From an uncultured Alphaproteobacteria bacterium (GTDB taxonomy: Bacteria > Pseudomonadota > Alphaproteobacteria > Rs-D84): a stretch of 64,000 nucleotides of DNA. A program made the position numbers and the translations under genes. Below the pieces are notes generated by a model that was not told the DNA's origin, ran no database searches, and saw only the letters and a program-made list of their open reading frames with translations. The stretch is taken from the NCBI GenBank assembly GCA_944389465.1, contig CALXML010000006.1:13-64012 (forward strand), given 5' to 3'. Positions 34,443-56,101 of the stretch are shown one piece after another. Within the stretch, counting starts at the first letter, position 1; every line of letters starts with the position of its first letter.

Positions 34443-34588
34443 ATGGGGCGCCATCGCATTAACGAATGGCACCGATATACACGATGTTAATTATAGTGTT
34501 TATCCCCTAAAAAAACAACAAAAAACAACCCCTGTGCAGTTGTATTTCACCCAAAGATTTCTTTGGCTTCCAACCAAAGGCGGGACAA

Positions 34589-36971: not shown

Positions 36972-36973
36972 TA

Positions 36974-38426: not shown

Positions 38427-38949
38427 AATAGCAAAAATTACAATTGGAGAATTTGTTCATAAAAACAATCAAACATCAGATGGCTTGTATCCTGTTTATA
38501 ACGGTGGAACCAGCAACACAGGTTTTTATAATGAATATAATCACACAAGCAACAATATTATAATAAGTGCAAGGGGAGCAAATGCTGGGTTTGTAAATAG
38601 GGTTTTTGTAAATTATTGGGCAGGAAATAGTTGTTATAGTGTTGATGTGATAGACAGAGAAAACATCAATTGGACGTATATTTATTATGTATTAAAAAAC
38701 AATCAACAAAAACTTATTGGTGAACAACAAACAGGTAGCATCCCTGCTATTTCAAAAAAACAGGTGGAAAATTTTAGAGTTCCTATTCCATCACTTGCTG
38801 AACAGGAACGTATTGTTTCCATATTGGATAAATTTGATGCGTTGGTGAATGATATATCTGATGGTTTGCCTGCGGAAATAAATGCACGTCGCCAACAGTA
38901 TGAGTATTATAGGGATAAATTATTGAACTTTGAACCAATTGCTGCATAA
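38413..38949 (+). CDS. hsdS: type I R-M specificity subunit, C-terminal half (TRD2 + distal conserved region)
   Basis: ATG at 38413 follows TAAGGA. Ends with PSLAEQERIVSILDKFDALV...RRQQYEYYRDKLLNF, parallel to the end of the first half. Confidence 0.8.
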   Translation: MALCEIAKITIGEFVHKNNQTSDGLYPVYNGGTSNTGFYNEYNHTSNNIIISARGANAGFVNRVFVNYWAGNSCYSVDVIDRENINWTYIYYVLKNNQQKLIGEQQTGSIPAISKKQVENFRVPIPSLAEQERIVSILDKFDALVNDISDGLPAEINARRQQYEYYRDKLLNFEPIAA

Positions 38950-38960
38950 AGGAGAAAAAA

Positions 38961-39245
38961 ATGGTCAAAACAAACAAAAAATGGTCTATGAATAAAATAT
39001 TGGTAACAGCATTGTTATCATTGTGTGTTGTTTATACTGGTGTTGGTTTGATAAATCAAGCAATTAAACCAGCACACGCATTTGATAGTTGGGATTTAAA
39101 AAATGCCATAGAAGATGTCGTGTCAGATAAAATATCCGCATATGATTATGATTTTAAATCCGCCGTAAGACGTGTTGTTAATAATAATTGTTCAGTATCG
39201 TGTTATGAATCTTATGGAAGTGTTAGTTGCAGTATAGATTGCTAA
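38961..39245 (+). CDS. small exported/membrane protein (94 aa) inserted between hsdS and hsdR
   Basis: RBS AAGGAGA, N-terminal hydrophobic segment, C-terminal CSVSCYESYGSVSCSIDC. Confidence 0.5.
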   Translation: MVKTNKKWSMNKILVTALLSLCVVYTGVGLINQAIKPAHAFDSWDLKNAIEDVVSDKISAYDYDFKSAVRRVVNNNCSVSCYESYGSVSCSIDC

Positions 39246-39268
39246 ACTTTGAACCAATGGCTGCATAA
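39245..39268 (+). repeat. duplicated hsdS 3' end
   Basis: AACTTTGAACCAATGGCTGCATAA versus 38926-38949 AACTTTGAACCAATTGCTGCATAA (1 mismatch). Confidence 0.85.
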
Positions 39269-39276
39269 CAAAAGGA

Positions 39277-42200
39277 ATGATTATGGTAAATTATAGTGTT
39301 GTTGCAGAAAATAAAGAATCCACCGTTGTGGCACAATATAAATCCACAAATGGCCGTGAAACAACATACCAATCCGAAGCGGAATTGGAAAGGACCTTTA
39401 TCAAACAATTGGAAAAACAGGCATACGAATATCTTCCTATTCACAGCGAAGAAGATTTAATAAACAACCTGCGTCACCAATTGGAATTGCTAAATGACTA
39501 TAAATTTACTGATAACGAATGGGCAAACTTTTTTAAACAAAACATTGCCAACCAGGCCAATGGCATCAAAGAAAAGACCGCAATGTTGCAACGTGACGGG
39601 CATATTCAATTGCTAACACGTGATGATGGCACCACCAAAAACATTTATTTGCTGGATAAAAAAGACATTCACAATAACCGCCTGCAAGTTATCAACCAAT
39701 ATACAACCGATGCTGGGGTTCACGAAAACCGTTATGACGTAACCGTATTGGTTAATGGGTTGCCAATGGTGCATATTGAATTAAAACGTCGTGGGGTTGA
39801 TATCAAACAGGCATTCAACCAAATCAACCGTTATCAACAAGATAGTTTCTGGACAGGTTGCGGATTGTATCAGTATATCCAGATATTCGTTATATCCAAT
39901 GGCACATATACAAAATATTATAGCAACACAACACGTGACCTGCATATAAATGAAGCCAAGAATAATTCAATCACACCACGCAAGAAAACCAGTGACAGTT
40001 TTGAATTCACATCTTGGTGGGCCGATGCCACAAATATGCCAATCACTGACCTGATGGACTTTGCCAAGACATTTTTTGCCAAACACACCATTTTGAACAT
40101 TTTAACCAAGTATTGCGTGTTTAACACCGATGACCACTTGTTGGTTATGCGCCCATATCAAATCGTTGCCACGGAACGAATTTTGAACAAAATCAGAGTG
40201 TCTTCAAATTACAAGAAATATGGCACGATTGATGCTGGGGGGTATATCTGGCACACCACGGGTTCTGGTAAAACGTTGACCAGTTTTAAAACCGCACAAT
40301 TGGCCAGCGCAATGCAGGAAATCGACAAGGTTTTATTCGTTGTTGACCGTCGTGATTTGGATTATCAAACAATGCAGGAATATGACCGTTTTGAAAAAGG
40401 TGCCGCCAACAGTAACACCAGCACCGCTGTATTAAAACGTCAATTGGAAGATTCCAATGCCAGAATTATAATCACAACAATTCAAAAACTGTCCCTGTTC
40501 ATTGAAAAGAATCCAAAGCATCCTGTATTTGATAAACACATTGTTTTGATATTTGACGAATGCCATCGTTCCCATTTTGGTATTGCCCACGAACAAATTG
40601 TCAAAGCATTCAAAAAATATCACCTGTTTGGCTTCACTGGAACACCTATATTTGCACAAAATGCCAGTGCTGGTGGCAAAGCACATTTGAAAACCACAGA
40701 CCAAGCATTTGGGGAACGTCTGCACGTGTATAGCATTGTGGACGCAATTCGTGATAAAAATGTTTTGCCATTCAAGGTTGATTATGTTGGAACAGTGAAG
40801 TGCAAGAACGCAGAAAACATTGAAGATAAAAAGATAAGTGACATTGACCGTGAAAAGGTTTTAATGGCCCCAGAACGCATTTCTAACAACGTAGGATACA
40901 TATTGAACAATTTTAATACAAAGACCAAGCGGAACGATAAATCGTTCTTGTTCAGTATTGTAACAAACGTTGAAAAGGTGGCCAGCGCAAAAGACCGTAA
41001 CAAGATTGAAAAAGTTAAACAAGCAATTCGTATGTCTGGGTTCAATTCTATATTTGCGGTGCAATCCATTCCAATGGCACGTCTGTATTATAACGAATTC
41101 AAAAAGCAGATGGCCGAACACCCTGAAAAAGGGTTAAAGATTGCCACCATATTCAGTTTTGCCGCCAATGGTGACGAATATTCTGATGACGGTATGTTTG
41201 ATGAAAATCCAGAAAACACAGGTGCATTGGATGCAACGTCACGTGAATTCTTGGAATCTGCTATTGACGATTATAACAAAATGTTTGGCACCAGTTATGA
41301 CACGTCCAGCGACAAATTCCAGAATTATTATAAAGACGTTTCACTTCGTATGAAAAACCGTGAAATTGACCTGCTGATTGTGGTTAATATGTTCCTGACA
41401 GGATTTGATGCCACGACATTAAATACGTTGTGGGTTGATAAAAACTTGCGTATGCACGGTTTGTTGCAGGCATTTTCACGCACCAACCGTATATTGAATT
41501 CTATCAAGACACACGGGAACATCATTTGCTTCCGCAATCTTGAAAAAGCAACCAATGAAAGTTTGGCTCTGTTCGGTGATAAAGATGCTGCAGGTGTCGT
41601 GTTATTAAAGACATTTGACGAATATTACAATGGTTATGAAGACAAAGGAAAACAAGTCCCAGGGTATAAAGAATTGGTTGATGAACTGTTGGAAAAATTC
41701 CCAATCGGACAAATGATTCTTGGCGAAACCGCAGAAAAAGAATTCGTGCGTTTGTATAGTGCAATTATCCGTTTAAGCAATGTTCTGGCTTCGTTTGATG
41801 AATTTGCGGATAAACAGATATTAACTGAACGTGATATCCAAGATTATGCCAGTATGTATATTGAAATGCACAGCAAATATATCAGAACCAAGGAAGCAGA
41901 AAAAGAAAATATCAACGACGACTTGGTATTTGAAATGGAACTTATCAAGCAGATAGAAGTGAATATTGACTATATTCTGGCCTTGGTTAAACAGTACCAC
42001 GACAAAAATTGCCAAGACAAAGAAATCAGGGTTTCAATTGAACGTGCAATAGATGCCAGTGTTGATTTGCGTAACAAAAAAGACCTGATTATGCAGTTTA
42101 TAGATTCTTTAACACCAGATTCTGTTGTGGATAGAGATTGGTTGGTGTTCGTGAATGAAGCCAAAATATCTGAATTGAACAAGATTATTGACCAAGAAAA

Positions 42201-42408
42201 TCTGAACAAAGAAGAAACATACACGTTCATCAGGAATTCGTTCCGCAATGGTTCAGTGCAGACAAATGGCCAAGACATTGAAAAGGTTTTGCCACCAATA
42301 TCACGTTTTGATAAATCTGCAAATCGCACCCAGCGCAAACGCAATATCATAACACGTCTGCTGGAATTCTTTGACAGATTCTTTGGCATATCTAATGGTG
42401 AATTTTAA
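39277..42408 (+). CDS. hsdR: type I restriction endonuclease subunit R (type IC-like length)
   Basis: 1043 aa. N-terminal nuclease region (VLVNGLPMVHIELKR), helicase motif I TGSGKT, motif II FDECHRS, motif VI region QAFSRTNR. Confidence 0.9.
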   Translation: MIMVNYSVVAENKESTVVAQYKSTNGRETTYQSEAELERTFIKQLEKQAYEYLPIHSEEDLINNLRHQLELLNDYKFTDNEWANFFKQNIANQANGIKEKTAMLQRDGHIQLLTRDDGTTKNIYLLDKKDIHNNRLQVINQYTTDAGVHENRYDVTVLVNGLPMVHIELKRRGVDIKQAFNQINRYQQDSFWTGCGLYQYIQIFVISNGTYTKYYSNTTRDLHINEAKNNSITPRKKTSDSFEFTSWWADATNMPITDLMDFAKTFFAKHTILNILTKYCVFNTDDHLLVMRPYQIVATERILNKIRVSSNYKKYGTIDAGGYIWHTTGSGKTLTSFKTAQLASAMQEIDKVLFVVDRRDLDYQTMQEYDRFEKGAANSNTSTAVLKRQLEDSNARIIITTIQKLSLFIEKNPKHPVFDKHIVLIFDECHRSHFGIAHEQIVKAFKKYHLFGFTGTPIFAQNASAGGKAHLKTTDQAFGERLHVYSIVDAIRDKNVLPFKVDYVGTVKCKNAENIEDKKISDIDREKVLMAPERISNNVGYILNNFNTKTKRNDKSFLFSIVTNVEKVASAKDRNKIEKVKQAIRMSGFNSIFAVQSIPMARLYYNEFKKQMAEHPEKGLKIATIFSFAANGDEYSDDGMFDENPENTGALDATSREFLESAIDDYNKMFGTSYDTSSDKFQNYYKDVSLRMKNREIDLLIVVNMFLTGFDATTLNTLWVDKNLRMHGLLQAFSRTNRILNSIKTHGNIICFRNLEKATNESLALFGDKDAAGVVLLKTFDEYYNGYEDKGKQVPGYKELVDELLEKFPIGQMILGETAEKEFVRLYSAIIRLSNVLASFDEFADKQILTERDIQDYASMYIEMHSKYIRTKEAEKENINDDLVFEMELIKQIEVNIDYILALVKQYHDKNCQDKEIRVSIERAIDASVDLRNKKDLIMQFIDSLTPDSVVDRDWLVFVNEAKISELNKIIDQENLNKEETYTFIRNSFRNGSVQTNGQDIEKVLPPISRFDKSANRTQRKRNIITRLLEFFDRFFGISNGEF

Positions 42409-42428
42409 TCAAAGGGGGAAATTGACAG

Positions 42429-42671
42429 ATGCCGTATGATTGTTCACTTAATTCTGCACACGCAGTGAACGAAAAATATAAACGCGAAGAAGCCGCGAAA
42501 CAGGTGCAATTGGTCAAAGAACAGAAAAAAGATGCCTATGATGCAGAAATGAAATCATTGGCTGAACAGAATTTGCAGGCCGCGATTAAAAACCAGCACA
42601 TCGCAAATAAAACTTTCTGGGTTGCTGTGGTTTCTGGTATAATTGGGTTGATATCACTGATATTCAAATAA
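42429..42671 (+). CDS. small tail-anchored membrane protein (80 aa)
   Basis: Charged coiled N-terminal part and a C-terminal TM helix (FWVAVVSGIIGLISLIF). Confidence 0.4.
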   Translation: MPYDCSLNSAHAVNEKYKREEAAKQVQLVKEQKKDAYDAEMKSLAEQNLQAAIKNQHIANKTFWVAVVSGIIGLISLIFK

Positions 42672-42684
42672 AGGGTTAATAGAG

Positions 42685-43125
42685 TTGGGTGAAATAATAA
42701 AATTTTTACAACAAAATGGTGATTGGATTGCTGGTTTGGGAATGGTGTTTTTTGCAGGCGTCCAAGTTTGGTTGATGTTTTCACAAAATCGTCAGCAGTT
42801 GTTATTAAAACGTCTAGAATTGCTCCAACAATTTGATGAAATAGCAATCAAGTTTGACGGTTCAATAGAAACAGCAATAGAAATCCAAGAATGGTTAAGC
42901 AAACACCAAAGTGTTTTTGCTGTATTATTAAAAAAGAAAGATGTTAAAACGGTGGAAAATTTGTTTAATTTTTTGATGGGCATTCGTAAATCCCCGAAAA
43001 CCAACGAAACACAAGTGCTTATACAACGTGTTAAAGATTTCAATATTATTGCCAATAAAGTCACGCTGTGTTTAGGTAAAGCCCGTTATGGAATGACAAA
43101 AGAAAACTTGATTAAAATCAAATAA
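42685..43125 (+). CDS. small N-terminally anchored membrane protein (146 aa)
   Basis: TTG start, TM helix WIAGLGMVFFAGVQVWLMF. Last gene before attR. Confidence 0.4.
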   Translation: MGEIIKFLQQNGDWIAGLGMVFFAGVQVWLMFSQNRQQLLLKRLELLQQFDEIAIKFDGSIETAIEIQEWLSKHQSVFAVLLKKKDVKTVENLFNFLMGIRKSPKTNETQVLIQRVKDFNIIANKVTLCLGKARYGMTKENLIKIK

Positions 43126-43460
43126 AAAGCAAACACATTATAACCCAGTGGGTATCACCCCACCCATAGATGTCACGTTAAATTCTGGTGCCACATAAAA
43201 AGAATGCTTTTTTTATTGTATCGCTGTTTGTAATAAACTATAATAATGCGTGAAACCAGACGGCAATATCCCAAAAAACATATTGTCGTTGAAACAGTGA
43301 AACCAAAGGACTAACAAAAGAACAAACAATTTTCTTGGGATACCAGTGGGATTTATCAAATCACAATTTATAAAAATTGCTGAAACTTGATAAAACATAA
43401 CCTGTTGATTTATGTGTTATATTGTGTGTTGGTATCTTATGTTTTTTTATCTGGCCAATG

Positions 43461-43505
43461 CTGTTAATCCGTATGTCACTGGTTCGAGTCCAGTTGCCCG
43501 AGCCA
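43461..43505 (+). repeat. attR: 45-bp copy of the tRNA-Asn 3' half
   Basis: Identical to 31743-31787. Confidence 0.9.
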
Positions 43506-43582: not shown

Positions 43583-43595
43583 CAGCCATAGGTTG
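43583..43595. repeat. solitary array-type box
   Basis: ATTCAGCCATAGGTTGAATTT (core CAGCC-ATA-GGTTG), same family as the 45.4-51.2 kb array. Confidence 0.6.
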
Positions 43596-43691: not shown

Positions 43692-43886
43692 TGTTATTCT
43701 GGAGTTGTGGAATATTACCAAGTGTCCAAATCCACATCAGATGAAAATGTTTTAAGACGGGAACAGGCTTCATTAGATGCCATAAAAGGCAGCTATCCTA
43801 AATACCTGCTGACTATGGATTTGGGTGGTGGCAACCATAATGGCATAGAACACAAGAATATATTGGATTGGCTGGTGGCAAAATAG
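43692..43886 (+). pseudogene. C-terminal remnant of an AAA ATPase (DUF4143-like)
   Basis: Frame reads ..GVVEYYQVSKSTSDENVLRREQASLDAIKGSYPKYLLTMDLGGGNHNGIEHKNILDWLVAK*. An upstream stop at 43674 leaves no N-terminal ATPase part. Family assignment is from memory. Confidence 0.4.
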
Positions 43887-43979
43887 CCACTGCGACCTTT
43901 ACCCATTCAAATAATTATATATGTCAGCAGAATTTCTTTTCTTGTATTTCGGTCAAAAAGAGTCTATAATTAAAAAAAT

Positions 43980-44011
43980 CCCGCGGGTCACCACTCCCCA
44001 CGGGGTTTTTT
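43980..44011. terminator. possible bidirectional terminator
   Basis: CCCGCGGG-N9-CCCACGGG (1 mismatch) flanked by an A-run and a T-run. Confidence 0.35.
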
Positions 44012-44132
44012 ATTGCGTGTTTTGCCCAATCTTTATGCAAAATTGACTGTCTATACCAAGGGCTGCAAAACGTGCCGCCAGAAGAGGGCGGCAGTATGAT
44101 AATTACAATTCAAAAACAGTTATTTTGGCTGT

Positions 44133-45308
44133 TTATCTATTAAAAAAGTCTTTTACTTTATCCAGTGCGTTTTGCACAAAAGACTTCTTTTGTGCCAGAC
44201 CATGGACTTTTTTTGTTGCTGTTGTCAAATTCTGTACTTGTTTGGTATAGAAATAATCATAAAAGGCTTCAATGGGCACGCCAATTCCACCATTATTATC
44301 CGCAGAAATAAATACACCGGTTATACCCAAATGTTTCAGTTGTTCCTGTATACCCTGTGTTGTTTCCGCGCCGGTTCGGGCCGCCAGCTGGCTGGGTACG
44401 GGGGAAAACCAAACCACTTTATCTTCTAGGGTTGAATTAGCCATCAAATCTGTTTTGCGAATTTTCCCCAATGTGTCAAGTTCGTGAATCCGTAATGCGC
44501 CACTTGTAATTTCCAGAAAATCTTTTGGTGCGGCCCGCCATGCATCAATTATTGCCGGTAAATATATTATATGATTTCTGTAGTATTGATATGGACTGCG
44601 TTCATTATATGGCATTCCTTCTGCAAATTCACTGTTAGCAGATTGTAATAATGCGTCTATGTCCGCGGCGGGCAATTCCATATTTAATGCGCGCTGTTTA
44701 AATATTGCCGCAGGATACTTTTTCTCTAACATTTGGCAAACCAAATCCAATTCTGGATATGGATTTTTATTCATGTCCGGCATTTTATTCAACCAACCGG
44801 CGTCAGAAATTCCCTGTAACGGATACCATTTGCCAGACGCGATTCCGTATTCTGCTTCCTTGCCAGATAATCCGGACGATACATAAAAAGGCAAACGATG
44901 ACCATTTATAATTACAACAGCAATCGCGCGGCCCCCACGACCAACAATGCCAGACACTTTGCCGGACTTGGTCGGGATTAATTCTAAATAGACATTGTTA
45001 CCATGAACTTTGCCTATGGGCTGGGTTTCCGTCAAATCTGTAACACGCCCCCACATAATATTTTCTATGCGATTTTTATCTAATTGATTTTGCAAAACAA
45101 TAACCGACACGTTACCGTCCGGATATTCCAGACATGTATAGATAACATTTGGTCGTTGATTTAATTCGCCGGCAATTCGGTGGTATTCACTATCGTTGGC
45201 GCATTTGTGCTCGTAATATTTTACACCAAACTTATTTTTATCCGCAGGAACAAAATTAAAATCAGCACCTGATATACGATTTAATTTTTTTAATTGTGTT
45301 TGTTGCAT
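44133..45308 (-). CDS. hypothetical protein (391 aa) abutting the repeat array
   Basis: Long clean ORF with no signal peptide and no recognisable domain. Confidence 0.6.
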   Translation of the reverse strand: MQQTQLKKLNRISGADFNFVPADKNKFGVKYYEHKCANDSEYHRIAGELNQRPNVIYTCLEYPDGNVSVIVLQNQLDKNRIENIMWGRVTDLTETQPIGKVHGNNVYLELIPTKSGKVSGIVGRGGRAIAVVIINGHRLPFYVSSGLSGKEAEYGIASGKWYPLQGISDAGWLNKMPDMNKNPYPELDLVCQMLEKKYPAAIFKQRALNMELPAADIDALLQSANSEFAEGMPYNERSPYQYYRNHIIYLPAIIDAWRAAPKDFLEITSGALRIHELDTLGKIRKTDLMANSTLEDKVVWFSPVPSQLAARTGAETTQGIQEQLKHLGITGVFISADNNGGIGVPIEAFYDYFYTKQVQNLTTATKKVHGLAQKKSFVQNALDKVKDFFNR

Positions 45309-45358
45309 ATCGTATCCTTTGCGTCAATTATACTATATTTTCGCAAAGATATCTATAC

Positions 45359-45520
45359 AATTGGCGCGGGACGACCGCACCGAACAGTACCTATTATTTA
45401 TGGCGCACGCCACAACACACGGCACAACGCGCGGCAATAAAACATACGCGGTGATTGGATGAACCGCCGGCCCCAATAATGATTGGCGGCGCGTTGACGC
45501 GCCTGTGACGCCGCAAGACA
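45359..45520. repeat. GC-rich terminal module, left
   Basis: AATTGGCGCGGGACGACC...GGCGCGTTGACGCGCC... is the reverse complement (with small indels) of 51044-51194. Confidence 0.85.
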
Positions 45521-48225
45521 CAACCAGTGGTTGAATACACGGTTGATTTTCTGCCGGATATAACAGCCTATGACTTTGCATTTTTTCAAATCACGATTAC
45601 CGCAACACAACCACAGGTTGAATATTTTTAAAAATTCAACCAAATATGCAGATTACATCCGAACGGTTAATGTTGAATATGTTGTATTTTTGCCATAATG
45701 CTTGCGATATTAATACCAAATACAACCGATGGTTGAATTTATTGCGACGCTCAACCAAAATAATTGGACGATTATTGAATTAAAAGAACGATTTCGTTAA
45801 TGCCCCAAAATGGCAGGACAAAACACAACCTGTGGTTGAATATACTGCAACATTCAACCAATAATGACGCTGGCGAACCCCGAGCCACGAGAAGCGTTTT
45901 CAGCAACGCCCAAGATTAACAAGACTAAACACAACCTACGGTTGATTTTGTTGTAATATTCAATTAAGTATAGATAGCAAGTAATTGTATAGGCAGTTGT
46001 TTTAATATTTTGCTACAGTACCAAGATTAAATACAACTTGTGGTTGTGTTTATTGCAGTATTCAATCAAAAAATAATGTGCCAATTATTGGATTAAGAGA
46101 ACAAATTCATCAATGTCTGAAACAGCGTGGAAAAATACAACTTACGGTTGAATTTGTTGTAACATTCAACTAATGGCAGTGCGTTAGACTATTAGATTAT
46201 GCCCCCCAAGTTCAGTAACGTTTGGATTATAACCGTTAAACACAACCTGTAGTTGAATAATTTATAAAATTCAACCAAATACGCAGCTCTATGCCAAAAT
46301 GCCTAACAGAAATTACATTATATTTTGCTACAACCAGTACAATATTAGCATCAAATACAACTTCTGGTTGAATTTATCATAGCGTTCTGCTAACGACGGG
46401 CTCTGTCATTAAATTACAGATAGCGTTTTGCAATAATGTCCAGATTATCAAGAATCAATACAATCAGAGGTTGAATATTTTTAACAATTCAACTAAATAT
46501 ACAGGTTTATGTCCAAATAATTAGTGAAAAATATGTTATATTTTGTTGTCATAAGCGCAATTTTAACGCTAAATACAGCCTACGGTTGATTATATTATAA
46601 TATTCAATTAATCATAGGCGACAAGTGATTAGATTACAAACAGTAATTTTACCAACGTCCTATATTATCAAGCTCAAATACAACCTACGGTTGAAATCGT
46701 TGATATATTCAATTAAATACACTCCCAGCCAATTGCGCGGATTACCAGCATCAATTTCAACCTACGGTTGTATTTGATACATTCCGCACACCGACAGATA
46801 AAATGCAAACGGACACGATTTCAACTATAAATTCAACCTGTGGTTGTATTGCTCTTTGCATTTACGGACTTCTAATGAAATGCTAGACAAATGTATTTCG
46901 CAGGGCAATTAATAGACAATCCCCGACATTATGCATAATAATTCAACCTACGATTGTATTTAACCTTGTGTTTCTAGTATAATTCCAACCAGATAAACGT
47001 AATTAACTACTAACTTACCGAATGTAATTTTTTACTCATGGATACAACCTGTGGATGTATTACATTTGCACAAGTGCAGACGAGCGGATAATACGAGAAT
47101 TTAAACAAAGTTTCAACCCTTGGTTGTATTGGGCTTTGCGTTTGTAATGTTTTACTTAATATAACAAGATAAGTTGCAAACAATCGTAATTTTGATAAAA
47201 TACGATAATTTTTTACAACAATACAACCTATGGTTGAATTTGTTTTGATGTTTCCAGTATTTGCATCTATAAGGTTGGCAAACGTCTATAATCAGCGGCA
47301 AAATTGTTGACAACTCTCATTAGCGACATTTGCCGGTTTTGTCGCCATAAATTCAACCATAGGTTGTATTGTGGTTCGGGTTTTCCGCAATTTTTCTGTG
47401 CCGCCCCCAAAAGCATCAACCAAGCGACTACACCGCACAATGTAACTATTTTAAAAGTTCAATCCACATTAGGCACAATGACCAAATACAACTATGAGTT
47501 GAATATTACTTCTGATTTCTGCCGATTGTGCGAGCGTACAAGTTACACCGTCCTGTGTGATGGAATAATGTTTTTTCTGTTCTCCAATTGTCTGTTACGA
47601 AATTTGAACACTTTCGGAAGCCCGACCAAGTAAATTGCTATCTAAATGACTGATATGCATCGCCATGTGTGTAATATCAATACTAAATACAACTTGTGAT
47701 TGAATTTGCTAACGTATTCAACCAGTTATAACACGGTCAGCACATCCGGACTTTTAATGACGATTTGATAAAACATCTAGCTTAACCCACATGAATACAA
47801 TCTATAGTTGTAAGAAATACAAATTTCTATTCTTTGTTTTGTCGCGGGGACACATTCTGTCACAATCCGATTTTTTCTAAATTATCGGTGCTCAATCACT
47901 GTATTTTTATTCTTGCATATATGATGGCGTACACGGGACAATTTTTAGTCTTTTTGACTAGAAATATTTACAATATTCAACTACTGGTTGATTGCTAGTG
48001 CTGAAATCCGGTACTATTTTAGAAAACAATTAATGCGTTAAGAGCCAATACTTTTACAGAATGTAAATATACTACCTTGGATTGAAAAGTTTAATAAATT
48101 CTATCACTGGTTGAAGCGCATAGCTAAATATCAGCGTTTTTAACAAATTAATAAAATACAAAATTTTAAAAATGCTGCGTACAATGATGGGTTGCAACTC
48201 TGAAAAAACGCTAAATACTAACATA

Positions 48226-48248
48226 AAATTCAACCAATGGTTGAATTT
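48226..48248. repeat. perfectly palindromic 23-bp box near the array centre
   Basis: AAATTCAACC-AAT-GGTTGAATTT. Confidence 0.85.
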
Positions 48249-51043
48249 TATTATTCTGTCTAGTTTTTTATTGGGGCTTTGATAACCAAAACATCAAAAG
48301 GTTGCTTGCTAGTAATCAGCAGGACAAAAAACGTAAAATATTAAACGTAATTTCAACTGTGAGTTGAATTTTATTGGCTTGTCTTGTCTTTTTTTGATGA
48401 ATATAAAAAAGTATTCAACCATAGGTTGATTTTACGCCCAATATTGTAGTTGTTATCATAGATTTAGAACCAAACACTCGGATGGCGCGCACTTATGTAA
48501 ATTGGGGTGAAGTGTTTAACAAATACAACCACAGGTTGAATTTTGGTGTAAAATACTGCGGACTACCGTTAATTATCGTGTCAATCAAAGAATACATGTG
48601 TCCGACGAACATCCAGCAAAGCGTAATAAATTCAATACGAAATTCAACCAGAGGTTGTATTAGATTCTTTTCTATTGTACATAGGTGACCTTATAAGATG
48701 TATGCAAGTGGAATTTTATACTAAAACCAACCCTAGGTTGAATGAGCTGGCGTTAATGCAGGATATTGGTGGGGTGCTATCCGTAATCCAACAATCAATG
48801 GCATTATTATAAGTTGAATATATTTGTAAATTCAACCGTCGGTTGTATTTATGTCTTATTATCTCATATAAATAATGTTTTATAATGATTGTCCAACGGC
48901 TGTTGCAGATAATGATACAGCATATGTAGGCTGAACAAATTTTATTGTCATTACAGGTTGAATTAATGTCTGCAAAATCGCCTGTACCGCCATTTACAAT
49001 TATGTTTTGTTTGCTATTAGTCTTCCTTTGGTGGTGTTTTGGGGTGCACGGCTAAAAAATGTAACATCCACAACCACAGGTTGAAATTTCTGCTGTAAAT
49101 CTGCACTGTTTCCGAAGTTATCCCCAATAAGTCAATAATTGGGTATATGGGTTTTGATTAATTGAATAATACGATAGTTTCAATCATGGGTTGAATCTGT
49201 GTGCTTAATTTTGCGTTTTACAGCGGAGTATTGAATTATGAACAATATTTTTCAGCTATGCTGAATTTGTGGTGACGATATATGTTGGTGGTTGAATAAA
49301 TGACAAAAAAACAACCTTTGGTTGAATATTTATCCGTATTTTATAGACGTGTCGGATAAATGCTTTAAAAATACGAATTATAGATTAATCATTGGTGCTG
49401 TATATTTGTTGTCAAAATATCGGTAAAAATACCGAATGCTGATTATATACCAGAAGAAATACTAGGTAATAACAGACAAAAACACCATACAAAATTTAAC
49501 CATAGGTTGTACCCATGAGTAATAAATTACATTCGGTAAGTTATTAATAGTTTTAATTATAGTTATATGGTTTGTGTTATGTCAAAACACGGGGGTGAAT
49601 ACAACCATAGATTGAATCGTTGCGCAAAATCCCGCAAATTTACTTATTAAAATTTCTAATAATTCAGACAACTCATTTGCAACCAATGTAATTAAAGTAA
49701 AATACAACCACAAGTTGAATTATGACGCTATTTCTATTATAAGTTGATCATTTGTGTTAAGGTGTCTGAAGTGGAGAAACTTACATCAAAATCAACCCTA
49801 GATTGAATTTAGTGTTGGTATTTGTTTGTATAGAGCATTTGATTGTAGGAAACGGTTAGATTTTTCCAGATTAAACTTTTGTCATGTATAACTACTTGAA
49901 CTCTCAATCACTCTTGTTATTAATATTAAAGTTGCCAAAACACTGAACGCAATACAACCACAGGTTGAATTTATATTTAAAATCGTGTCTGTTTGCACTT
50001 TATCTGTCGGTGTGCGGAATGTATTAAATGCAACCGTAGGTTGAAATTAATGCTGGTAATCTGCGCGGTTGGCAGGAAATGCATTTGGTTGAACATATCA
50101 ATAAATTCAGCCGTAGGTTGTATTTGGGCTTGGTGATATAGGGTATTAGTAAAATTACTGTTTATAATCTAATCACTTGCCATCTATGATTAATTGAATA
50201 TTATAATAAATTCAACCACAAGTTGTATTTAAACCTGATAAGAAAGGAGTTTCAGAAATTGTAGATTATAATCCATCTATTGATAGTGTTGTCATTGGTT
50301 GAATGTTCTGTCAAAATCAACCACAGGTTGTATTTTTATGCCGTTGTTTCAGGCATTGATGAACTTGTTCTCTTAATTCAATAATTGGCACATCGTTTTT
50401 AATTGAATATTGCAACAAAATCAACCATGGGTTGTATTTTTGTGCCGTTGTTTCAGGTATTGATGAACCTGTTCTCTTAAGCCAATAATTATCCGCATCG
50501 TTTTTTTGATTGAACCTCGTGATAAATGCAACTACAGATTGTGTTTAATACTGGTAATCTAGGATGTTAACAAAAATTGTTAAACCAACTGTTGATAGTG
50601 TCGTCATTGGTTGAATGTTCTGTCAAAATCAACCACAGGTTGCATTTTGTCTTGATAATTTAAGGTATTATAAAAATCACTGTTTGCAATCTATTAATTT
50701 AATTGAATATTATGCAAAATTCAACCACAGGTTGTGTTTTATCTTGCTGTTTTGGGGCATCAATGAAATCGTTCTTTTAATTCAATAATCGGCCAATTAT
50801 TTTTTAATTAAATATCGTAATAAATTCAACTATCGGTTGTATTTAATATAAATATCGCAAGTGTTATGGCAGAAACGCAACATATTCAACATTAACCGTT
50901 CGGATGCAATCAGCATATTTAGTTGAATTTTTAAAAACATTCAACCTGTGGTTGTGTTGTGGTAATCGTTATTTGAAAAAAAACGCAAAGTCATAGGTTA
51001 TTACATCCGGCGGAAAATCAACCGTATATTCAATCTGTGATTG

Positions 51044-51194
51044 TGTCTTGCGGCGTTACAGGCGCGTCAACGCGCCGACAATCATTATTACGGGCCAGCG
51101 GTTCAGCCAATCGCCACGTATGTTTTATTGCCGCGTGTTGTGGCGTGCGTCATAAATAATAGATACTGCTCGGGCCGGTCGTCCCGCGCCAATT
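51044..51194. repeat. GC-rich terminal module, right
   Basis: Reverse complement of 45359-45520, with an approx 11-nt deletion and scattered substitutions. Confidence 0.85.
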
Positions 51195-51304
51195 TGGTGG
51201 CGGGATTATAAAATGTACCATATATTTAAATGCCAATTCGTCATACGACTTCTTTCACTTGTCTTGTTATAAATATCGTGTCGGCGGGATTTTAGCCGTT
51301 TGTT

Positions 51305-51317
51305 CAACCGGTGGTTG
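51305..51317. repeat. solitary perfect box outside the inverted repeat
   Basis: TGTTCAACC-GGT-GGTTGGAT. Confidence 0.6.
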
Positions 51318-51600
51318 GATTTGCCTTGGGTATATTCATTTGCGGGCGGGTGGGGCGGTCACGTTGTGGCCTGATATTTCGCGGTTATTGGAAATCGCAT
51401 AGTCATTATTGCATAATCATTATATTAAATATCGTCTATTCCCCATCGTTTGCGTTCGTTGTGTTGCCAGTGGCGGGGCGTGCCGTATGTGTCGGGACGT
51501 CACATCCATAAATTTGCCAAAACGCCCAAATGCCAGTGGCCACGTTGTCCATATATCATAATAATTCATCGCCTTGATTTTTCTGTGTTAATTTTTCATC

Positions 51601-51629
51601 TTGCTTTGCGGTACGATGCAGGATAACAT
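51601..51629 (+). promoter_or_regulatory. sigma70-like promoter of the Cys-rich gene
   Basis: TTGCTT - 17 nt - TAACAT, in the same position relative to the leader as at 5079-5107. Confidence 0.45.
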
Positions 51630-51866
51630 AATTTATGTTGATGGGTGTTCCGTCAATGGGGTGTGAGAACCCGTGCATACGCGTCGGAATATTGGGACGG
51701 TGCGGTTGTGCCGACCGTGTGGTATTACGACGAAAAATAAACTCCTGATATTTGGTCAGGAGGGTCGTGAATATAAAATAAGCGACACAATTCGTATGAT
51801 TGTTCTCAACCTCCTGACCACCAAGTTTTTGGTGGTTTTTCGTTAAGAAAAAACAGGAGTTTGAAA
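51630..51866 (+). promoter_or_regulatory. conserved structured 5' leader (copy 2) with intrinsic terminator
   Basis: Hairpin 51638-51656, hairpin 51742-51762, terminator ACCACC-N8-GGTGGTTTTT at 51817-51840. Confidence 0.55.
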
Positions 51867-52448
51867 ATGAAAAAAACATTATATATAGCACCGCTTATTG
51901 CGGGCTTGTGCAACAGTGCTGTTGCTTGGACGGCTGGTCAACAGTGTGCCGCCGATTATGATATGTCCACATATTATCAATGCGATTGCCCAATAGAAGA
52001 CAGATTGGCCAGTGGCTGGATTGTTGGGCCGTGTGATTCTTATGAACAAATCTGGTGTTATGATACGAATGGCGTTTGTGCCGGTGACGGTGGCGAGGGT
52101 GCATGTGGGGTATGCCACTGCACAGATTCTGTTGGTGATTGGGAAAAAATGACAGACCCGTTTATCGGCGAATTTATGCAACGCGTTATCACGACGTACA
52201 GTCATTCAGATAATTATTATATATGCAAGGCATCCACCCAGCGTGAAAAAGCATGTTTGGCTGGGTATTATAAATCTGGTACTTCTGGATTAAACTGTCG
52301 CTTGTGTCCGTCATTTAATGGTGTGGCCGGCGCATCAGATATTGGTGCCACCAGCATAACAGATTGTTATATAGCATCCGGCACAATATTGTCAGATACC
52401 ACCGGAACGTACACATATACACGTGATTGTTATTACAGTAACCAGTAA
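51867..52448 (+). CDS. secreted Cys-rich protein (193 aa)
   Basis: ATG at 51867 lies 7 nt after AGGAG. Signal peptide MKKTLYIAPLIAGLCNSAVA and 19 Cys. GYYKSGTSGLNCRLCP and the C-terminal TGTYTYTRDC motifs are shared with 4127-4408. Confidence 0.65.
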   Translation: MKKTLYIAPLIAGLCNSAVAWTAGQQCAADYDMSTYYQCDCPIEDRLASGWIVGPCDSYEQIWCYDTNGVCAGDGGEGACGVCHCTDSVGDWEKMTDPFIGEFMQRVITTYSHSDNYYICKASTQREKACLAGYYKSGTSGLNCRLCPSFNGVAGASDIGATSITDCYIASGTILSDTTGTYTYTRDCYYSNQ

Positions 52449-52460
52449 TTACAAATAAAT

Positions 52461-52487
52461 ACCCCGCCGTTCGGTGGGGTATATTTA
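52461..52487. terminator. terminator between convergent genes
   Basis: ACCCCGCC-GTTC-GGTGGGGT plus a T-rich tail. Confidence 0.6.
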
Positions 52488-52502
52488 TCAATATTGGTTT
52501 TG

Positions 52503-53144
52503 TTACAGTCCAAATTTGTATGCCGCGCCAATGTATAATTCTGTGGCGTCAACCTCTACTGAAATATGGTTGCCGGCGTCGTCACTCATTTCAATATCGC
52601 CATAGTTTTGATATTTTAATCCTATGTTTAAATCTATGCGTGTGTTTAATGCAAAGTTTACACCAACCATTGCGCCCCACGACATATCAGCGGTTGAATC
52701 AGACATATGCATTCCGCCACCAACATCGCCCCAAATGCCTGAAACACCAATGCCCAATCCGGCATATGGTTCAACCGCGCCACCAAATTGCTGGTACACG
52801 TACACATTCAGCATATTTGACCATATGTTAAAATCATAATCATTGCCGTATTTTTCTTCGCCGCCATATGTGTATGCTGTTTCAAATTCTATTTTTATAT
52901 GGTCTGTTAATCTGTTTCCGATATTCAGGCCAAAACCAAAACTGTCATCGCGCAATTTAGTATCGTTGCCATCTTTAAATTCAACACCAAATGCCAAGTG
53001 TTCATTTTGGTGCAATCTGATACCGACATAGTTATCACGACGTGGTGCATTGCCATAATCATAACCATATCCATAATCATCGGCCACAGCGGGCAGGGCA
53101 GACAATCCCAAAATGCTGCATAATATAATAGACAGTTTTTTCAT
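52503..53144 (-). CDS. outer-membrane beta-barrel protein (small OMP/porin family)
   Basis: Signal peptide, alternating aromatic/Gly beta-strand pattern, C-terminal ..AAYKFGL. Confidence 0.7.
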   Translation of the reverse strand: MKKLSIILCSILGLSALPAVADDYGYGYDYGNAPRRDNYVGIRLHQNEHLAFGVEFKDGNDTKLRDDSFGFGLNIGNRLTDHIKIEFETAYTYGGEEKYGNDYDFNIWSNMLNVYVYQQFGGAVEPYAGLGIGVSGIWGDVGGGMHMSDSTADMSWGAMVGVNFALNTRIDLNIGLKYQNYGDIEMSDDAGNHISVEVDATELYIGAAYKFGL

Positions 53145-53230
53145 CTCTTATCCTCTGTTTTGTGTGTTTAGTAATTATAGTTTTAATTTATGGAAAAAGG
53201 CAAGTCGTTTATGATATAATTCCATAACGG

Positions 53231-55024
53231 TTGGAGATTACTGCATTGTTTCGCACAGAATCAGATGTTCACAGTCGTGATAAAAAAAATCAACAGCGCG
53301 CCCCGTCGCGTTGGGTGCGTTTATTGGTTTGGGGCATAGATTTATTTATGTTGTGCTTGGTTGGTGTTGCGATATATGTGGTTGTCATATTTTTGCAAAT
53401 GCCATCACTGGATGCGATTTTGCATGAAACGCGCCCCGCAGCAATAGTGTTTCTGGACAAGGATGGCAATGAGTTGCGTTCATCAAATCGCATAATGGGT
53501 GTGCCGGTATCTGTGGAAACTTTGCCGCCCCACGTATGGCAGGCCATTGTTGCAATAGAAGACAAACGTTTCTTTGAACATGGGCCGATTGAAATTCGTG
53601 CCATTGCGCGTGCGATGATTTCTAATTTAATGCATGGGCGGTTGGCGGCCGGTGGTTCAACAATAACACAGCAAACTGCAAAAAATATATTCTTGTCCCG
53701 TGAAAAAAAGATTTCGCGCAAGGTTCAGGAATTAATTTTATCATATTGGCTGGAAAACAGATTTACTAAAAATCAGGTTTTGGATTTATATATGAACCGT
53801 GTGTCTTTGGTTGGCGGAATGCGTGGAATTGACGCGGCCGCGCGTGTTATGTTTCAAACATCTGCAAATAATTTAACAATTGCACAGGCTGCACAAATCG
53901 CCGCAATGTTAAAAGCCCCAACAACATACAGTCCATTGGTAAACCCCGATAAAAATATCGCACGTGCCCGCACTGTATTACAGGAAATGGTGCGTCAGGG
54001 ATATATTTCATTAAATCAGGCGCGTATTGCGGCACGTCAATTACAACCTGCAACCCCCGCACCAAATACAAATATATACCGTTATTGGACAGATTTTGTT
54101 CTGGACGAAGTTGAATCCACAATAGGTACATTGGAAACAGATGTTTATGTATACACCACAATGGATATGGAGTTACAGGAACATATTGCCGACATATTAC
54201 CCACGCGGGTTGGTGAATATCAGGGGGCGGTTGTTGCCATGAATACCGATGGTGCGGTGCGTGCAATGGTTGGTGGCACTAATTATCAGGAAAGTCAATT
54301 TAATCGCGCATTGGCACTGCGTCAACCCGGCAGTTCGTTTAAGCCTGTTGTTTATCTGGTTGCGTTGGAAAATGGTATGACACCCGACAGTTATGTTAAT
54401 GATTCCCCATTTTCAATTGGCGATTATTCGCCGCAAAATTATAATAAACGTTATTATGGTGATATAACTTTGGCAACAGCGTTTGCAAAGTCTGTTAATT
54501 CAGTGCCATTAAAACTGACACAGGAATTTGGTATTGACAGTGTGCTGAATATGGCGGGCCGTTTGGGTGTGGGCAATAAATTGCGTCGTGAATATTCAAC
54601 AGTGTTGGGGGCGTCTGAAATGTCGCTGTTGGATTTAACGACCATTTATGCGGTTATTTGGAATGATGGGTATTCTGTGCGTCCCTATTCAATTACAAAA
54701 ATAACAGACCCACAGGGAAATATAATTTATCAACGTAATCCATCAGAACCACTGCAAATTTTAATGCCACAAACTGTGGAATATATGACGGATTTATTGG
54801 CAGACGTTGTCGCTGTTGGTGGTACGGGACATCGCGCAATGGCATCCGGTGTGCTGGGTGGCAAAACCGGTACCAGTAATGACAACCGTGATGCGTGGTT
54901 TGTTGGTGCATGGCGTGATTTGATAATAGGTGTCTGGATGGGCTACGATGATTTTACATCAATGTCATCAAAAATAACCGGTGGCACAATCCCAGCAACC
55001 ATATTCCATGAAATAGTGAAATAA
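53231..55024 (+). CDS. mrcA: penicillin-binding protein 1A family (bifunctional transglycosylase/transpeptidase)
   Basis: EDKRFFEH and GGSTITQQ transglycosylase motifs; SSFK, SVN and KTGT transpeptidase motifs. The TTG start is uncertain. Confidence 0.85.
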   Translation: MEITALFRTESDVHSRDKKNQQRAPSRWVRLLVWGIDLFMLCLVGVAIYVVVIFLQMPSLDAILHETRPAAIVFLDKDGNELRSSNRIMGVPVSVETLPPHVWQAIVAIEDKRFFEHGPIEIRAIARAMISNLMHGRLAAGGSTITQQTAKNIFLSREKKISRKVQELILSYWLENRFTKNQVLDLYMNRVSLVGGMRGIDAAARVMFQTSANNLTIAQAAQIAAMLKAPTTYSPLVNPDKNIARARTVLQEMVRQGYISLNQARIAARQLQPATPAPNTNIYRYWTDFVLDEVESTIGTLETDVYVYTTMDMELQEHIADILPTRVGEYQGAVVAMNTDGAVRAMVGGTNYQESQFNRALALRQPGSSFKPVVYLVALENGMTPDSYVNDSPFSIGDYSPQNYNKRYYGDITLATAFAKSVNSVPLKLTQEFGIDSVLNMAGRLGVGNKLRREYSTVLGASEMSLLDLTTIYAVIWNDGYSVRPYSITKITDPQGNIIYQRNPSEPLQILMPQTVEYMTDLLADVVAVGGTGHRAMASGVLGGKTGTSNDNRDAWFVGAWRDLIIGVWMGYDDFTSMSSKITGGTIPATIFHEIVK

Positions 55025-55088
55025 AATTCATCAGTACAGAAATAAAATCTGTTTTTATTGTGTTGGATTTTGTGATATAATATATGGT

Positions 55089-56072: not shown

Positions 56073-56076
56073 TAAG

Positions 56077-56101
56077 AATCCGCCCAAATGGCGGATTTTT
56101 T
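56077..56101. terminator. bidirectional terminator
   Basis: AATCCGCC-CAAAT-GGCGGATT followed by TTTT. Confidence 0.75.

What the first reader, a model, noticed from the sequence alone, without database searches (positions are those of the whole stretch)
45608..46693. Unit architecture: three half-sites, about 105-bp (10 helical turns) phasing and about 312-bp higher-order repeat
In the left arm each unit reads AAATACAACC-N3-GGTTGAAT-N10-ATTCAAYY-AA followed by about 60 nt of spacer. That gives three copies of the half-site AT(A/T)CAACC in direct, inverted and direct orientation. The second and third can form an 8-bp stem with a 10-nt loop, which is mutually exclusive with the first/second palindrome. 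Successive cores at 45608, 45723, 45826, 45932, 46034, 46138, 46243, 46358, 46461, 46576 and 46681 are spaced 115, 103, 106, 102, 104, 105, 115, 103, 115 and 105 bp. This is close to 10 turns of B-DNA, so all boxes would face the same side of the helix. Spacers are not unique. They fall into recurring families with a three-unit period: 45723-46033 resembles 46034-46345, and on the right arm 50281-50330 equals 50593-50642 with 1 mismatch. This resembles a higher-order satellite organisation with a conserved protein-box, which I regard as very unusual for bacteria.
Basis: partly seen in the sequence, partly recalled or inferred. Interest (0 to 1): 0.75.

Follow-up and report, generated by a model that had tools for sequence, protein, structure and literature searches.

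The report
Mosaic palindrome-box repeat array
The flagged stretch is one arm of a 5.8-kb gene-free array of about 50 copies of a short palindromic DNA box in an uncultured gut alphaproteobacterium; it is built like the known mosaic repeat arrays of Neisseria and E. coli, changes fast between strains, and is not a helically phased protein scaffold.

Summary
The cores, their spacings and the third half-site are real and far above chance. The 1.1-kb finding is the left arm of a larger element, 45355-51198. This element has no credible ORF, is 33% G+C, and holds 43 boxes at 1 mismatch or fewer (about 53 at 2 or fewer). The box consensus is AAATWCAACC-N3-GGTTGWATTT. The element is an imperfect palindrome: arms 45355-47054 and 49500-51198 flank an asymmetric centre.

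Five independent metagenome assemblies reproduce it at 99.8-100% identity.

The roughly 105-bp period comes from duplicated units, not helical phasing. The centre, the right arm and three related arrays show no 10.5-bp phasing. The 312-bp period is a local duplication in the right arm and is barely above control in the left arm.

Related species carry arrays of the same box in the same chromosomal neighbourhood, with different numbers and orders of modules. A sister strain has 99-100% identical flanks, but its array is 10-25% diverged and its central roughly 2 kb is inverted, with the junction at a box.

This is the organisation of Neisseria NIME arrays and enterobacterial BIMEs. The sequence-specific criteria of both families fail, and no RAYT, Ssn, IS110, Cas, Par or Rep gene lies in the 64 kb. 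I call it a new variant of a known kind. Its function is unproven.

The parts
45355..51198 (.). Whole element: a 5.84-kb, 33% G+C repeat array with no credible ORF (only short mechanical ORFs of up to 109 aa overlap it), organised as an imperfect palindrome
   Evidence: ORF list; inverted repeats; composition; reproduced in independent assemblies L001-L003 (43929-49045) and L217/L218 (47414-57229) at 99.8-100% identity
45355..45520 (.). Left terminal inverted repeat: G+C-rich, box-free, and abutting the -35-like hexamer of the promoter-like site of the neighbouring 391-aa ORF
   Evidence: Pairs with 51035-51198 at 88-91% complementarity (I3/I7/I11; alignment A4); promoter-like site on the minus strand at 45355-45327
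45521..46693 (+). Left-arm box series (the finding): 12 boxes, 11 of them in the orientation ATACAACC-N3-GGTTGAAT (the box at 46034 reads GGTTGtgt on its right side). Most have a third half-site ATTCAAYY 10 nt downstream. Spacings are 87-115 bp.
46758..47054 (.). Inner part of the left arm, with boxes mostly in the opposite orientation (ATTCAACC-N3-GGTTGTAT). It is mirrored by 49500-50043.
   Evidence: (I1, I14)
47055..49499 (.). Asymmetric centre: about 20 boxes in mixed orientation, spaced 29-238 bp. It is not mirror-symmetric beyond the boxes. A slightly smaller interval, about 47385-49432, is inverted in sister strain L215.
   Evidence: real score 246 against unit-permuted 209 +/- 30
48223..48251 (.). 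Near-perfect 29-bp palindromic box (13-bp stem, -10.3 kcal/mol), about 40 bp from the centre of symmetry of the element (about 48277)
49500..51034 (-). Right arm, the inverted copy of the left arm. Boxes are in mirror orientation with TTGAAT 10 nt upstream. It contains the local 104-bp and 312-bp duplications.
51035..51198 (.). Right terminal inverted repeat: G+C-rich and box-free
45736..45825 (.). Member of the only multi-copy spacer family. The other members are 46047-46137, 50331-50421, 50435-50528 and 50735-50826.
50281..50330 (+). Segment repeated at 50593-50642 with 1 mismatch. This is the source of the 312-bp lag.
43583..43595 (.). Solo box (1 mismatch, with typical flanks attCAGCCATAGGTTGaatt), 550 bp downstream of the 391-aa ORF. 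It sits where relatives L008 and L026 carry their arrays.
51305..51317 (.). Solo exact box just outside the right terminus
44133..45308 (-). Neighbouring 391-aa ORF of an uncharacterised lineage-restricted family. It recurs next to boxes but is probably not required for the array.

Best explanation
The region is one arm of a fast-evolving intergenic mosaic repeat array. It is functionally analogous to Neisseria NIME arrays (dRS3 boxes flanking RS modules) and enterobacterial BIMEs (REPs plus linkers).

The constant part is a 19-23-bp inverted-repeat box, AAATWCAACC-N3-GGTTGWATTT. The variable parts are 16-225-bp AT-rich modules bounded by those boxes.

Shown: the array grew by duplication of box-plus-module units. 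This gives the roughly 105-bp period, the local 104-bp and 312-bp repeats, and the extra half-site, which reads as the remnant of a second, inverted box. One large inverted duplication made the whole element a 5.8-kb imperfect palindrome.

Shown: the array turns over much faster than its flanks. Module content differs between species. Homology between arrays stops at a box. The centre is inverted between two strains, with the junction at a box.

Inferred: the boxes are the joints at which recombination happens. The agent could be a box-specific recombinase or nuclease encoded elsewhere in the genome, as for RAYT with REP, SsnA with NTS, or the phage transposase with dRS3. Alternatively, recombination and template switching could be stimulated by the palindromes and the long inverted arms.

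The array encodes no protein or known RNA. Any benefit to the cell, such as a recombination hot spot, a protein sink or an insulator, is unproven.
For: Box enrichment is 48 against 2.4 expected. The box is kept while about 35 of 52 spacers are unrelated to each other. Oriented consensus.

Arms and termini. The structure is independently assembled five times.

The same box forms arrays in three related alphaproteobacterial MAGs, in the LigA / enoyl-ACP reductase / 391-aa-ORF neighbourhood. They differ in size and order: L008 has 11 boxes, L026 has 24 boxes with 167-243-bp superunits, and L079 has 19 boxes.

The L008 and L026 arrays are about 95% identical for 160 nt, and homology ends directly after the second box.

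Sister strain L215 has flanks 99-100% identical, but the array is only 73-96% identical per 100 nt. Its centre, about window 47385-49432, is inverted. The left junction lies inside the box at 47354. Window box 49497 is a hybrid of two contexts. The L215 arms are 92-94% alike, against 88-91% here.

Promoter-like sites are not enriched (32 against 30.9). There is no Rfam family. There is no similarity to plasmids or phages and no array in viral contigs.

The NIME definition and behaviour (syntenic but dynamic arrays, modules of 19-214 bp in families) are described in PMC1797815. BIME tandem amplification by a REP-associated transposase is described in PMC3333891.
Against: No box-specific enzyme was found. 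The 64-kb window has no RAYT, IS110, GIY-YIG or adjacent recombinase, and the rest of the genome could not be searched.

The box is not a dispersed high-copy repeat in the DNA available. Only two solo boxes lie in the 58 kb outside the array.

Between the two arms, the box cores are not significantly better conserved than the spacers (90.6% against 84.6%, p=0.12).

End points of internal similarity blocks are not enriched at boxes (0.42 against 0.33 +/- 0.09).

The inversion in L215 is bracketed by long inverted repeats, so ordinary homologous recombination could explain it without any box-specific step.
Confidence: 0.6

Rival explanations
1. Phased protein-binding scaffold. Each box is a dimer site, and the array is a centromere-like, nucleoid-organising or titration locus in which the roughly 105-bp spacing puts all sites on one face of the helix.
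For: A 5-3-5 (up to 8-3-8) palindrome is typical of dimeric helix-turn-helix sites. The box is conserved across species while the spacers are not. Left-arm spacings cluster at 102-115 bp.
Against: There is no 10.5-bp phasing in the centre, the right arm or the three related arrays. Copy number and order change between close relatives, and the array is 10-25% diverged where the flanks are identical. No ParA/ParB, Rep or regulator gene lies next to it. GC skew keeps the same sign on both sides, so the site is neither origin nor terminus.
Confidence: 0.17
2. ORF-less shufflon or inverton. A site-specific recombinase acts on the boxes, with 8-bp arms around a CC-N3-GG overlap, and flips or deletes the segments between them.
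For: Boxes occur in both orientations in the centre. The centre is inverted between strains, with the junction inside a box. N3 is mostly TGT/ACA, TAC/GTA or TAT/ATA. Two recombinase genes exist in the window, at 17989-18585 (resolvase/invertase type) and 32121-33194 (integrase).
Against: Neither recombinase is adjacent. The integrase belongs to a tRNA-Asn island that is bounded by a 45-nt direct repeat and is separate from the array. A 3-bp centre does not fit the 2-bp core of Hin-type sites (my own knowledge). The inversion is flanked by long inverted repeats, so homologous recombination suffices. All near-identical assemblies share one orientation. There is nothing to switch: no ORFs, and promoters are not enriched.
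Confidence: 0.12
3. REP/RAYT-type or NTS/Ssn-type hairpin repeat. The box is recognised as a single-stranded hairpin by a domesticated transposase or nuclease, which copies it. The neighbouring 391-aa ORF could be that partner.
For: Hairpins are predicted. Boxes flank the 391-aa ORF or its homologue in the window, L008, L026, L004/L210, and as a variant palindrome GAACC-ATT-GGTTC inside 111-nt direct repeats on both sides in L208. The box-gene-box layout is the hallmark of REPtrons and of ssnA (PMC3333891, PMC11893778).
Against: There are no SRM matches and no conserved GTAG. No Y1-transposase or GIY-YIG gene lies in the window. Boxes are absent near the homologues in L006 and L211-L214.

Strain L215 keeps a full array but has lost about 920 bp of the 391-aa gene between two 21-nt direct repeats.

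The protein's central domain is shared with giant phage virion-type proteins. It has no match to a solved structure at E <= 0.001; the best weak alignments (E 0.04-0.5, TM about 0.1) are not interpretable.
Confidence: 0.08
4. Assembly artefact or chance low-complexity sequence.
For: Metagenome assemblers can create false palindromes, and several contigs end inside the array.
Against: The arms are only 87-91% alike and contain indels. Five contigs from different samples cover the whole element with an overlap at 47414-49045. A 224-kb contig of a sister strain spans a homologous array.
Confidence: 0.01

Closest known systems
Neisserial intergenic mosaic elements (NIME: dRS3 boxes flanking RS modules; PMC1797815)
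   Same: A roughly 20-bp inverted-repeat box separates modules of about 20-200 bp that fall partly into families. Arrays are long and gene-free, sit at syntenic positions, and differ in repeat number and length between genomes. Sequence exchange ends at or near the arrays.
   Different: The box sequence differs (ATTCAACC-N3-GGTTGAAT, not ATTCCC-N8-GGGAAT) and the phylum differs. Here there is one large locus rather than hundreds of dispersed copies. There is no G+C wave (box 35.5%, spacer 32.6%). The whole array is a palindrome. No dRS3-targeting phage recombinase or SsnA was seen.
REP/BIME of enterobacteria and their RAYT (TnpA-REP) transposase (PMC3333891)
   Same: Imperfect palindromes with one non-complementary position (A.A) give the box an orientation. 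Boxes in alternating orientation are separated by linkers (clear in L026). There is tandem local amplification and high variability between strains.
   Different: There is no 5' GTAG. No RAYT lies in the 64 kb. The box is not dispersed at high copy in the DNA available. The stem is much shorter (5-8 bp) and the linkers are much longer.
NTS/SRM hairpin repeats and the Ssn GIY-YIG single-strand nucleases (PMC11893778)
   Same: An oriented hairpin repeat clusters at particular loci, and a small gene is flanked by the repeats. The family is reported in several Alphaproteobacteria.
   Different: The SRM pattern has 0 matches in the window. No GIY-YIG gene lies in the window.
R64-type shufflon (Rci recombinase acting on 19-bp sfx repeats; my own knowledge)
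   Same: Many 19-bp repeats in both orientations separate short segments, and a segment is inverted between strains.
   Different: There is no adjacent recombinase. The segments are non-coding. The inversion can be explained by the long inverted arms.
Eukaryotic foldback elements and alpha-satellite with a protein box (my own knowledge)
   Same: Long inverted arms are built from tandem units, and a short conserved box sits in variable monomers.
   Different: There is no evidence of mobility, and no empty site was found. The four bases outside each terminus (AATT) are themselves palindromic, so a target duplication cannot be called. There is no regular higher-order period.

Membership tests
REP/BIME | 20-40-nt imperfect palindrome able to fold | tested here: met
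   19-23-bp box, 5-8-bp stem with an A.A mismatch
REP/BIME | High copy number, dispersed through extragenic DNA | tested here: inconclusive
   Only 2 solo boxes in the 58 kb outside the array. L004 has 4 in 21 kb. The whole genome was not available.
REP/BIME | Conserved GTAG 5' of the palindrome foot | tested here: not met
   No conserved tetranucleotide; the flanks are A/T runs
REP/BIME | RAYT (Y1 transposase) gene flanked by the repeats | tested here: not met
   No PF01797-type hit among the roughly 50 ORFs of the window that were scanned. The rest of the genome was not testable.
NIME | dRS3 box ATTCCC-N8-GGGAAT, genus Neisseria | tested here: not met
   Different box. The host is an alphaproteobacterial MAG, by the names of homologues.
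NIME | Inverted-repeat boxes flanking roughly 50-150-bp modules that form families, clustered in long arrays | tested here: met
   Spacers of 16-225 bp. One five-member family and six two-member families.
NIME | Arrays syntenic between genomes but variable in number and length | tested here: met
   Window, L008, L026, L079 and L215
NIME | G+C wave with peaks at the boxes | tested here: not met
   Box 35.5% against spacer 32.6%
Ssn/NTS (SRM) | Match to the SRM pattern HGTCWY...RNCYNB, and an adjacent GIY-YIG ssnA gene | tested here: not met
   0 matches in the window; no GIY-YIG hit in the window
CRISPR array | Near-identical direct repeats, unique spacers of uniform length, cas genes | tested here: not met
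   Boxes vary and occur in both orientations. Spacers are 16-225 bp and some recur. No cas domains.
Integron cassette array (attC) | attC sites with RYYYAAC/GTTRRRY cores separating ORF cassettes, next to intI | tested here: not met
   The half-sites ATTCAAC/GTTGAAT happen to fit the degenerate cores. There are no cassettes with ORFs and no adjacent integrase.
Plasmid/chromosome centromere or iteron origin | Regular direct repeats next to parA/parB or rep genes; origin-type skew change | tested here: not met
   No such genes. Irregular spacing and orientation. No change in skew sign.
Shufflon | Adjacent Rci-type recombinase and coding segments between the repeats | tested here: not met
   No adjacent recombinase; the segments are non-coding

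The most novel reading that the evidence does not exclude
The array is the cis-acting substrate of a dedicated, still unidentified box-specific protein. This would be a third kind of repeat-associated system, beside RAYT with REP and Ssn with NTS. The protein might be the fold-novel 391-aa family that sits between boxes in several genomes. Under this reading, the three-half-site core with its two mutually exclusive pairings is the recognition switch that drives copying and inversion of modules.
Probability: 0.1. Interest if true: 0.75.

Novelty: new variant of a known kind. Interest (0 to 1): 0.45.

Why it matters
The 2007 FAM18 genome paper (PMC1797815) reported that NIME-type arrays had not been observed outside Neisseria, and no clear function is known for them. 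Here an independent lineage of uncultured gut Alphaproteobacteria has built the same architecture from an unrelated box. It reaches 5.8 kb at a single locus, and natural alleles differ by inversion, module turnover and 10-25% sequence divergence next to identical flanks.

This suggests that box-plus-module mosaics are a recurrent product of recombination at short palindromes. It also offers a compact natural system for asking which enzyme, if any, drives them, and whether such arrays serve as recombination hot spots.

For genome annotation, it warns that long ORF-free palindromic arrays in MAGs can be real, and that they break assemblies.

Tried and rejected
- Genome-contig scan. Only L026 and L079 were relevant.
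- Other collections. The JGI metagenome scan, the viral-contig scan and blastn against plasmids and phages found no related array.
- RNA. Rfam at gathering thresholds found only two tRNAs.
- 391-aa ORF. There is no Pfam, NCBIfam or PDB sequence hit. One PHROG match (phrog_32390, unknown function, E 0.0011) covers residues 123-195. The AlphaFold model is confident (pLDDT 89), but Foldseek against PDB gives nothing better than E 0.04. BFVD and a profile search link only its central domain to giant phage proteins that have no annotation.
- Mirror symmetry of the centre: not above a unit-permuted control.
- Purifying selection on boxes between the arms: not significant.
- Enrichment of similarity-block ends at boxes: not significant.
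- Neisseria DUS and Haemophilus USS: absent.
- Origin or terminus: rejected on GC skew.
- Type I restriction-modification island as a partner: rejected. The island is bounded by a 45-nt tRNA-Asn repeat, and there is no match to it in the loci fetched from relatives L008, L026 and L079, which carry arrays.
- DnaA-box, IHF and CcrM resemblances: checked by eye and judged too weak to pursue.
Full report
WHAT IS THERE

The window is chromosomal DNA of a bacterium. It carries genes for RNase PH, RNase E/G, RecG, acetate kinase, LigA, a class A PBP, ComM-type Mg-chelatase and signal peptidase. The only named homologues of a lineage-specific ORF come from uncultured Alphaproteobacteria MAGs.

Between 45309 and 51555 the mechanical ORF list shows only short ORFs of up to 109 aa. 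The 109-aa ORF has no Pfam hit. In this gap, CAACC-N3-GGTTG occurs 44 times at 1 mismatch or fewer, and about 54 times at 2 or fewer. The whole 64-kb window has 48 at 1 mismatch or fewer, against 2.4 +/- 1.7 in shuffles.

CHECK OF THE OBSERVATION

The oriented consensus of 35 boxes is aAATACAACC-NNN-GGTTGAATtT. One side reads ATA where the other reads AAT. The box is therefore an 8-bp palindrome with one A.A mismatch, which gives it a direction.

The third half-site is real. ATTCAA lies exactly 13 nt after GGTTG in 10 of the 13 cores from 45521 to 46681, and is mirrored in 7 right-arm units. The pattern GGTTGAWT-N10-ATTCAA gives 28 hits against 0.2 expected.

Folded as single-stranded DNA, the second and third half-sites make an 8-9-bp stem with a 10-nt loop (-6 to -7 kcal/mol, z about -3). 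This excludes the weaker first/second hairpin.

Autocorrelation has its top peak at lag 105 in the left arm, and at lags 312 and 105 in the right arm. The 50-nt duplicate at 50281 and 50593 differs by 1 mismatch.

The three-unit repeat in the left arm is not convincing. The two 311-bp blocks are 67% identical, and shifted controls give 62-67%. Mean unit identity at lag 3 is no higher than at other lags. TRF reports only a two-copy 104-bp repeat at 50312-50505.

THE LARGER ELEMENT

The finding is one arm of an element spanning 45355-51198.
- Its outermost roughly 165 bp on each side are G+C-rich, box-free inverted repeats.
- The arms 45355-47054 and 49500-51198 pair at 86-93% with indels.
- The centre of symmetry is near 48277, about 40 bp from a near-perfect 29-bp palindromic box at 48223-48251.
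- The central 2.4 kb holds about 20 boxes in mixed orientation, spaced 29-238 bp. It is not more mirror-symmetric than a unit-permuted control.

Of 52 spacers, five form one family, twelve form pairs (mostly mirror images across the arms), and about 35 are unique. The array is 33% G+C against 41% for the rest of the window.

The element is not an assembly artefact. L001-L003 cover 43929-49045 and L217/L218 cover 47414-57229. They come from different samples and match at 99.8-100%.

PHASING

The ten-helical-turn reading fails as a general rule. Neighbour spacings are concentrated only in the left arm, and equally so for periods 10, 10.5 and 11. That simply reflects units of similar length. The centre, the right arm and the arrays of three relatives show no 10.5-bp phasing. 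The roughly 105-bp period is best explained by descent: duplicated units keep their length.

RELATIVES

- L008. The homologue of the neighbouring 391-aa ORF is 80% identical. There are 11 boxes in 1.1 kb just downstream of that gene.
- L026. The homologue is 77% identical. There are 24 boxes in 2.6 kb, starting 46 bp after the stop codon. Box orientation alternates, and there are superunits of 167-243 bp.
- L079. There are 19 boxes in 2.9 kb upstream of the enoyl-ACP reductase and LigA genes.

These genes are the same neighbours as in the window. The window also has a solo box at 43583, at the position corresponding to the L008 and L026 arrays.

L008 and L026 are about 95% identical for the first 160 nt after the gene. 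Homology then stops directly after the second box.

More distant relatives have a few scattered boxes (L004, L210) or none (L006, L208-L214).

A SISTER STRAIN

L215 comes from a 224-kb contig. It is 99-100% identical to the window in every 100-nt bin right of 51193, but only 73-96% identical inside the array.

Its central segment, about window 47385-49432, is inverted. At the left junction, the sequence up to and including the left half of the box at 47354 matches the window. From the right half onward it matches the reverse complement of the sequence next to window box 49497. That window box is itself a hybrid of two contexts.

L215's inverted arms are longer and more alike, at 92-94%. L215 has also lost about 920 bp of the 391-aa gene between two 21-nt direct repeats, yet keeps about 48 boxes.

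WHAT IT IS AND HOW IT WORKS

The anatomy is a constant inverted-repeat box, variable modules partly in families, and arrays that are syntenic but dynamic. This is the published description of NIME arrays (PMC1797815). The alternating orientation and tandem amplification recall BIMEs (PMC3333891).

I therefore read the array as a recombination-driven mosaic.
- Shown: unit duplication, one large inverted duplication, rapid turnover, and an inversion with a box at the junction.
- Inferred: the boxes are the joints. The agent could be a box-specific enzyme encoded elsewhere, as for REP with RAYT, NTS with SsnA, or dRS3 with the phage transposase (PMC11893778, PMC3333891, PMC1797815). Alternatively, recombination could be stimulated by the palindromes and the long arms.

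Several results temper the enzyme version.
- No candidate gene lies in the 64 kb.
- The box cores are not significantly better conserved than the spacers between the arms.
- Ends of similarity blocks are not enriched at boxes.
- The long inverted repeats alone could explain the inversion.

THE 391-AA ORF

It is flanked by boxes in several genomes, and in L208 by 111-nt direct repeats that each carry GAACC-ATT-GGTTC. That resembles REPtron or ssnA layouts.

The evidence against it as a partner is stronger.
- Synteny can explain the association.
- Five of eleven loci lack boxes near the homologue.
- L215 keeps the array without the gene.
- The protein has a confident model but no informative structural match. 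Its central domain recurs in giant phage virion-type proteins.

I keep it as a low-probability candidate.

REJECTED ALTERNATIVES
- CRISPR. The boxes are variable and bidirectional, some spacers recur, and there are no cas genes.
- Integron cassettes. The half-sites fit the degenerate attC cores by chance. There is no intI and there are no cassettes.
- Centromere or iteron origin. There are no par or rep genes, and spacing is irregular.
- Origin or terminus. GC skew does not change sign.
- Ssn repeat. There are 0 SRM matches.
- Transcription units. Promoter-like sites are at the shuffle level. The 'terminator-like' excess is the boxes themselves.
- RNA genes. There is no Rfam family.

VERDICT

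The element is best described as a new variant of the intergenic mosaic repeat array kind. It is unusual for its size, its single-locus concentration, its overall palindromic build and its three-half-site core. Its function remains unproven.

Noticed in passing
window 31712-43505: An 11.7-kb genomic island is inserted at tRNA-Asn. The tRNA lies at 31712-31787 and a tyrosine integrase at 32121-33194. A type I restriction-modification system (HsdM, two HsdS, HsdR) spans 35397-42408. An exact 45-nt direct repeat of the tRNA 3' end lies at 43461-43505.
   Followed up: yes
window 44133-45308 (-), and L215: The 391-aa ORF belongs to a family of about 40 close homologues, all without Pfam domains. 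Its AlphaFold model is confident (pLDDT 89) with no match to a solved structure at E <= 0.001. Residues about 95-235 form a domain shared with 1-5-kaa proteins and with large phage virion-type proteins. In strain L215 the gene is deleted between 21-nt direct repeats (window 44292-44312 and 45234-45254).
   Followed up: partly
L208 9799-9909 and 11227-11337; L209 9690-9759 and 9893-9962: In two distant relatives the homologue of the 391-aa ORF has duplicated sequence at its side. In L208, 111-nt direct repeats (93% identical) bracket the gene on both sides, with a second, outer 57-nt pair. In L209, a duplicated tRNA 3' end plus terminator (70 nt, 94% identical) lies just upstream of the gene. 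This hints that the gene sits in a recombination-prone or cassette-like context.
   Followed up: no
window 17989-18585: A 198-aa serine recombinase (resolvase/invertase type with a C-terminal HTH) lies at the edge of a glycosyltransferase cluster. The cluster includes a 1689-aa multi-domain glycosyltransferase (22240-27309). This stretch finds no match in the L008 or L026 loci at the corresponding TatD-ThiF position. No box lies near it.
   Followed up: no
window 16092-31590 versus L008: Synteny with the relative L008 is broken on the array side of the 391-aa gene. L008 has DUF378-ThiF-TatD where the window has the array. The LigA-to-391-aa-ORF block is inverted relative to TatD-ThiF.
   Followed up: partly
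window 14314-14388: A short tandem repeat with a 10-11-bp unit (ATTGTGCAAA, about 5 copies) lies next to tRNA-Lys (14449-14524).
   Followed up: no
L071 4241-6900 (MAG OZ244188.1): An unrelated array of 15 near-identical copies of a roughly 55-nt repeat. The repeat contains the palindrome GTGAAACAACCAGCGGTTGTTTCAC. Spacings are 100-276 bp. It surfaced only because it contains CAACC-N3-GGTTG.
   Followed up: no
window 43700-43886: A short open frame looks like the C-terminal remnant of a larger gene. It lies between the island end and the 391-aa ORF, in a 1-kb stretch with no ORF of 60 aa or more in the mechanical list.
   Followed up: no
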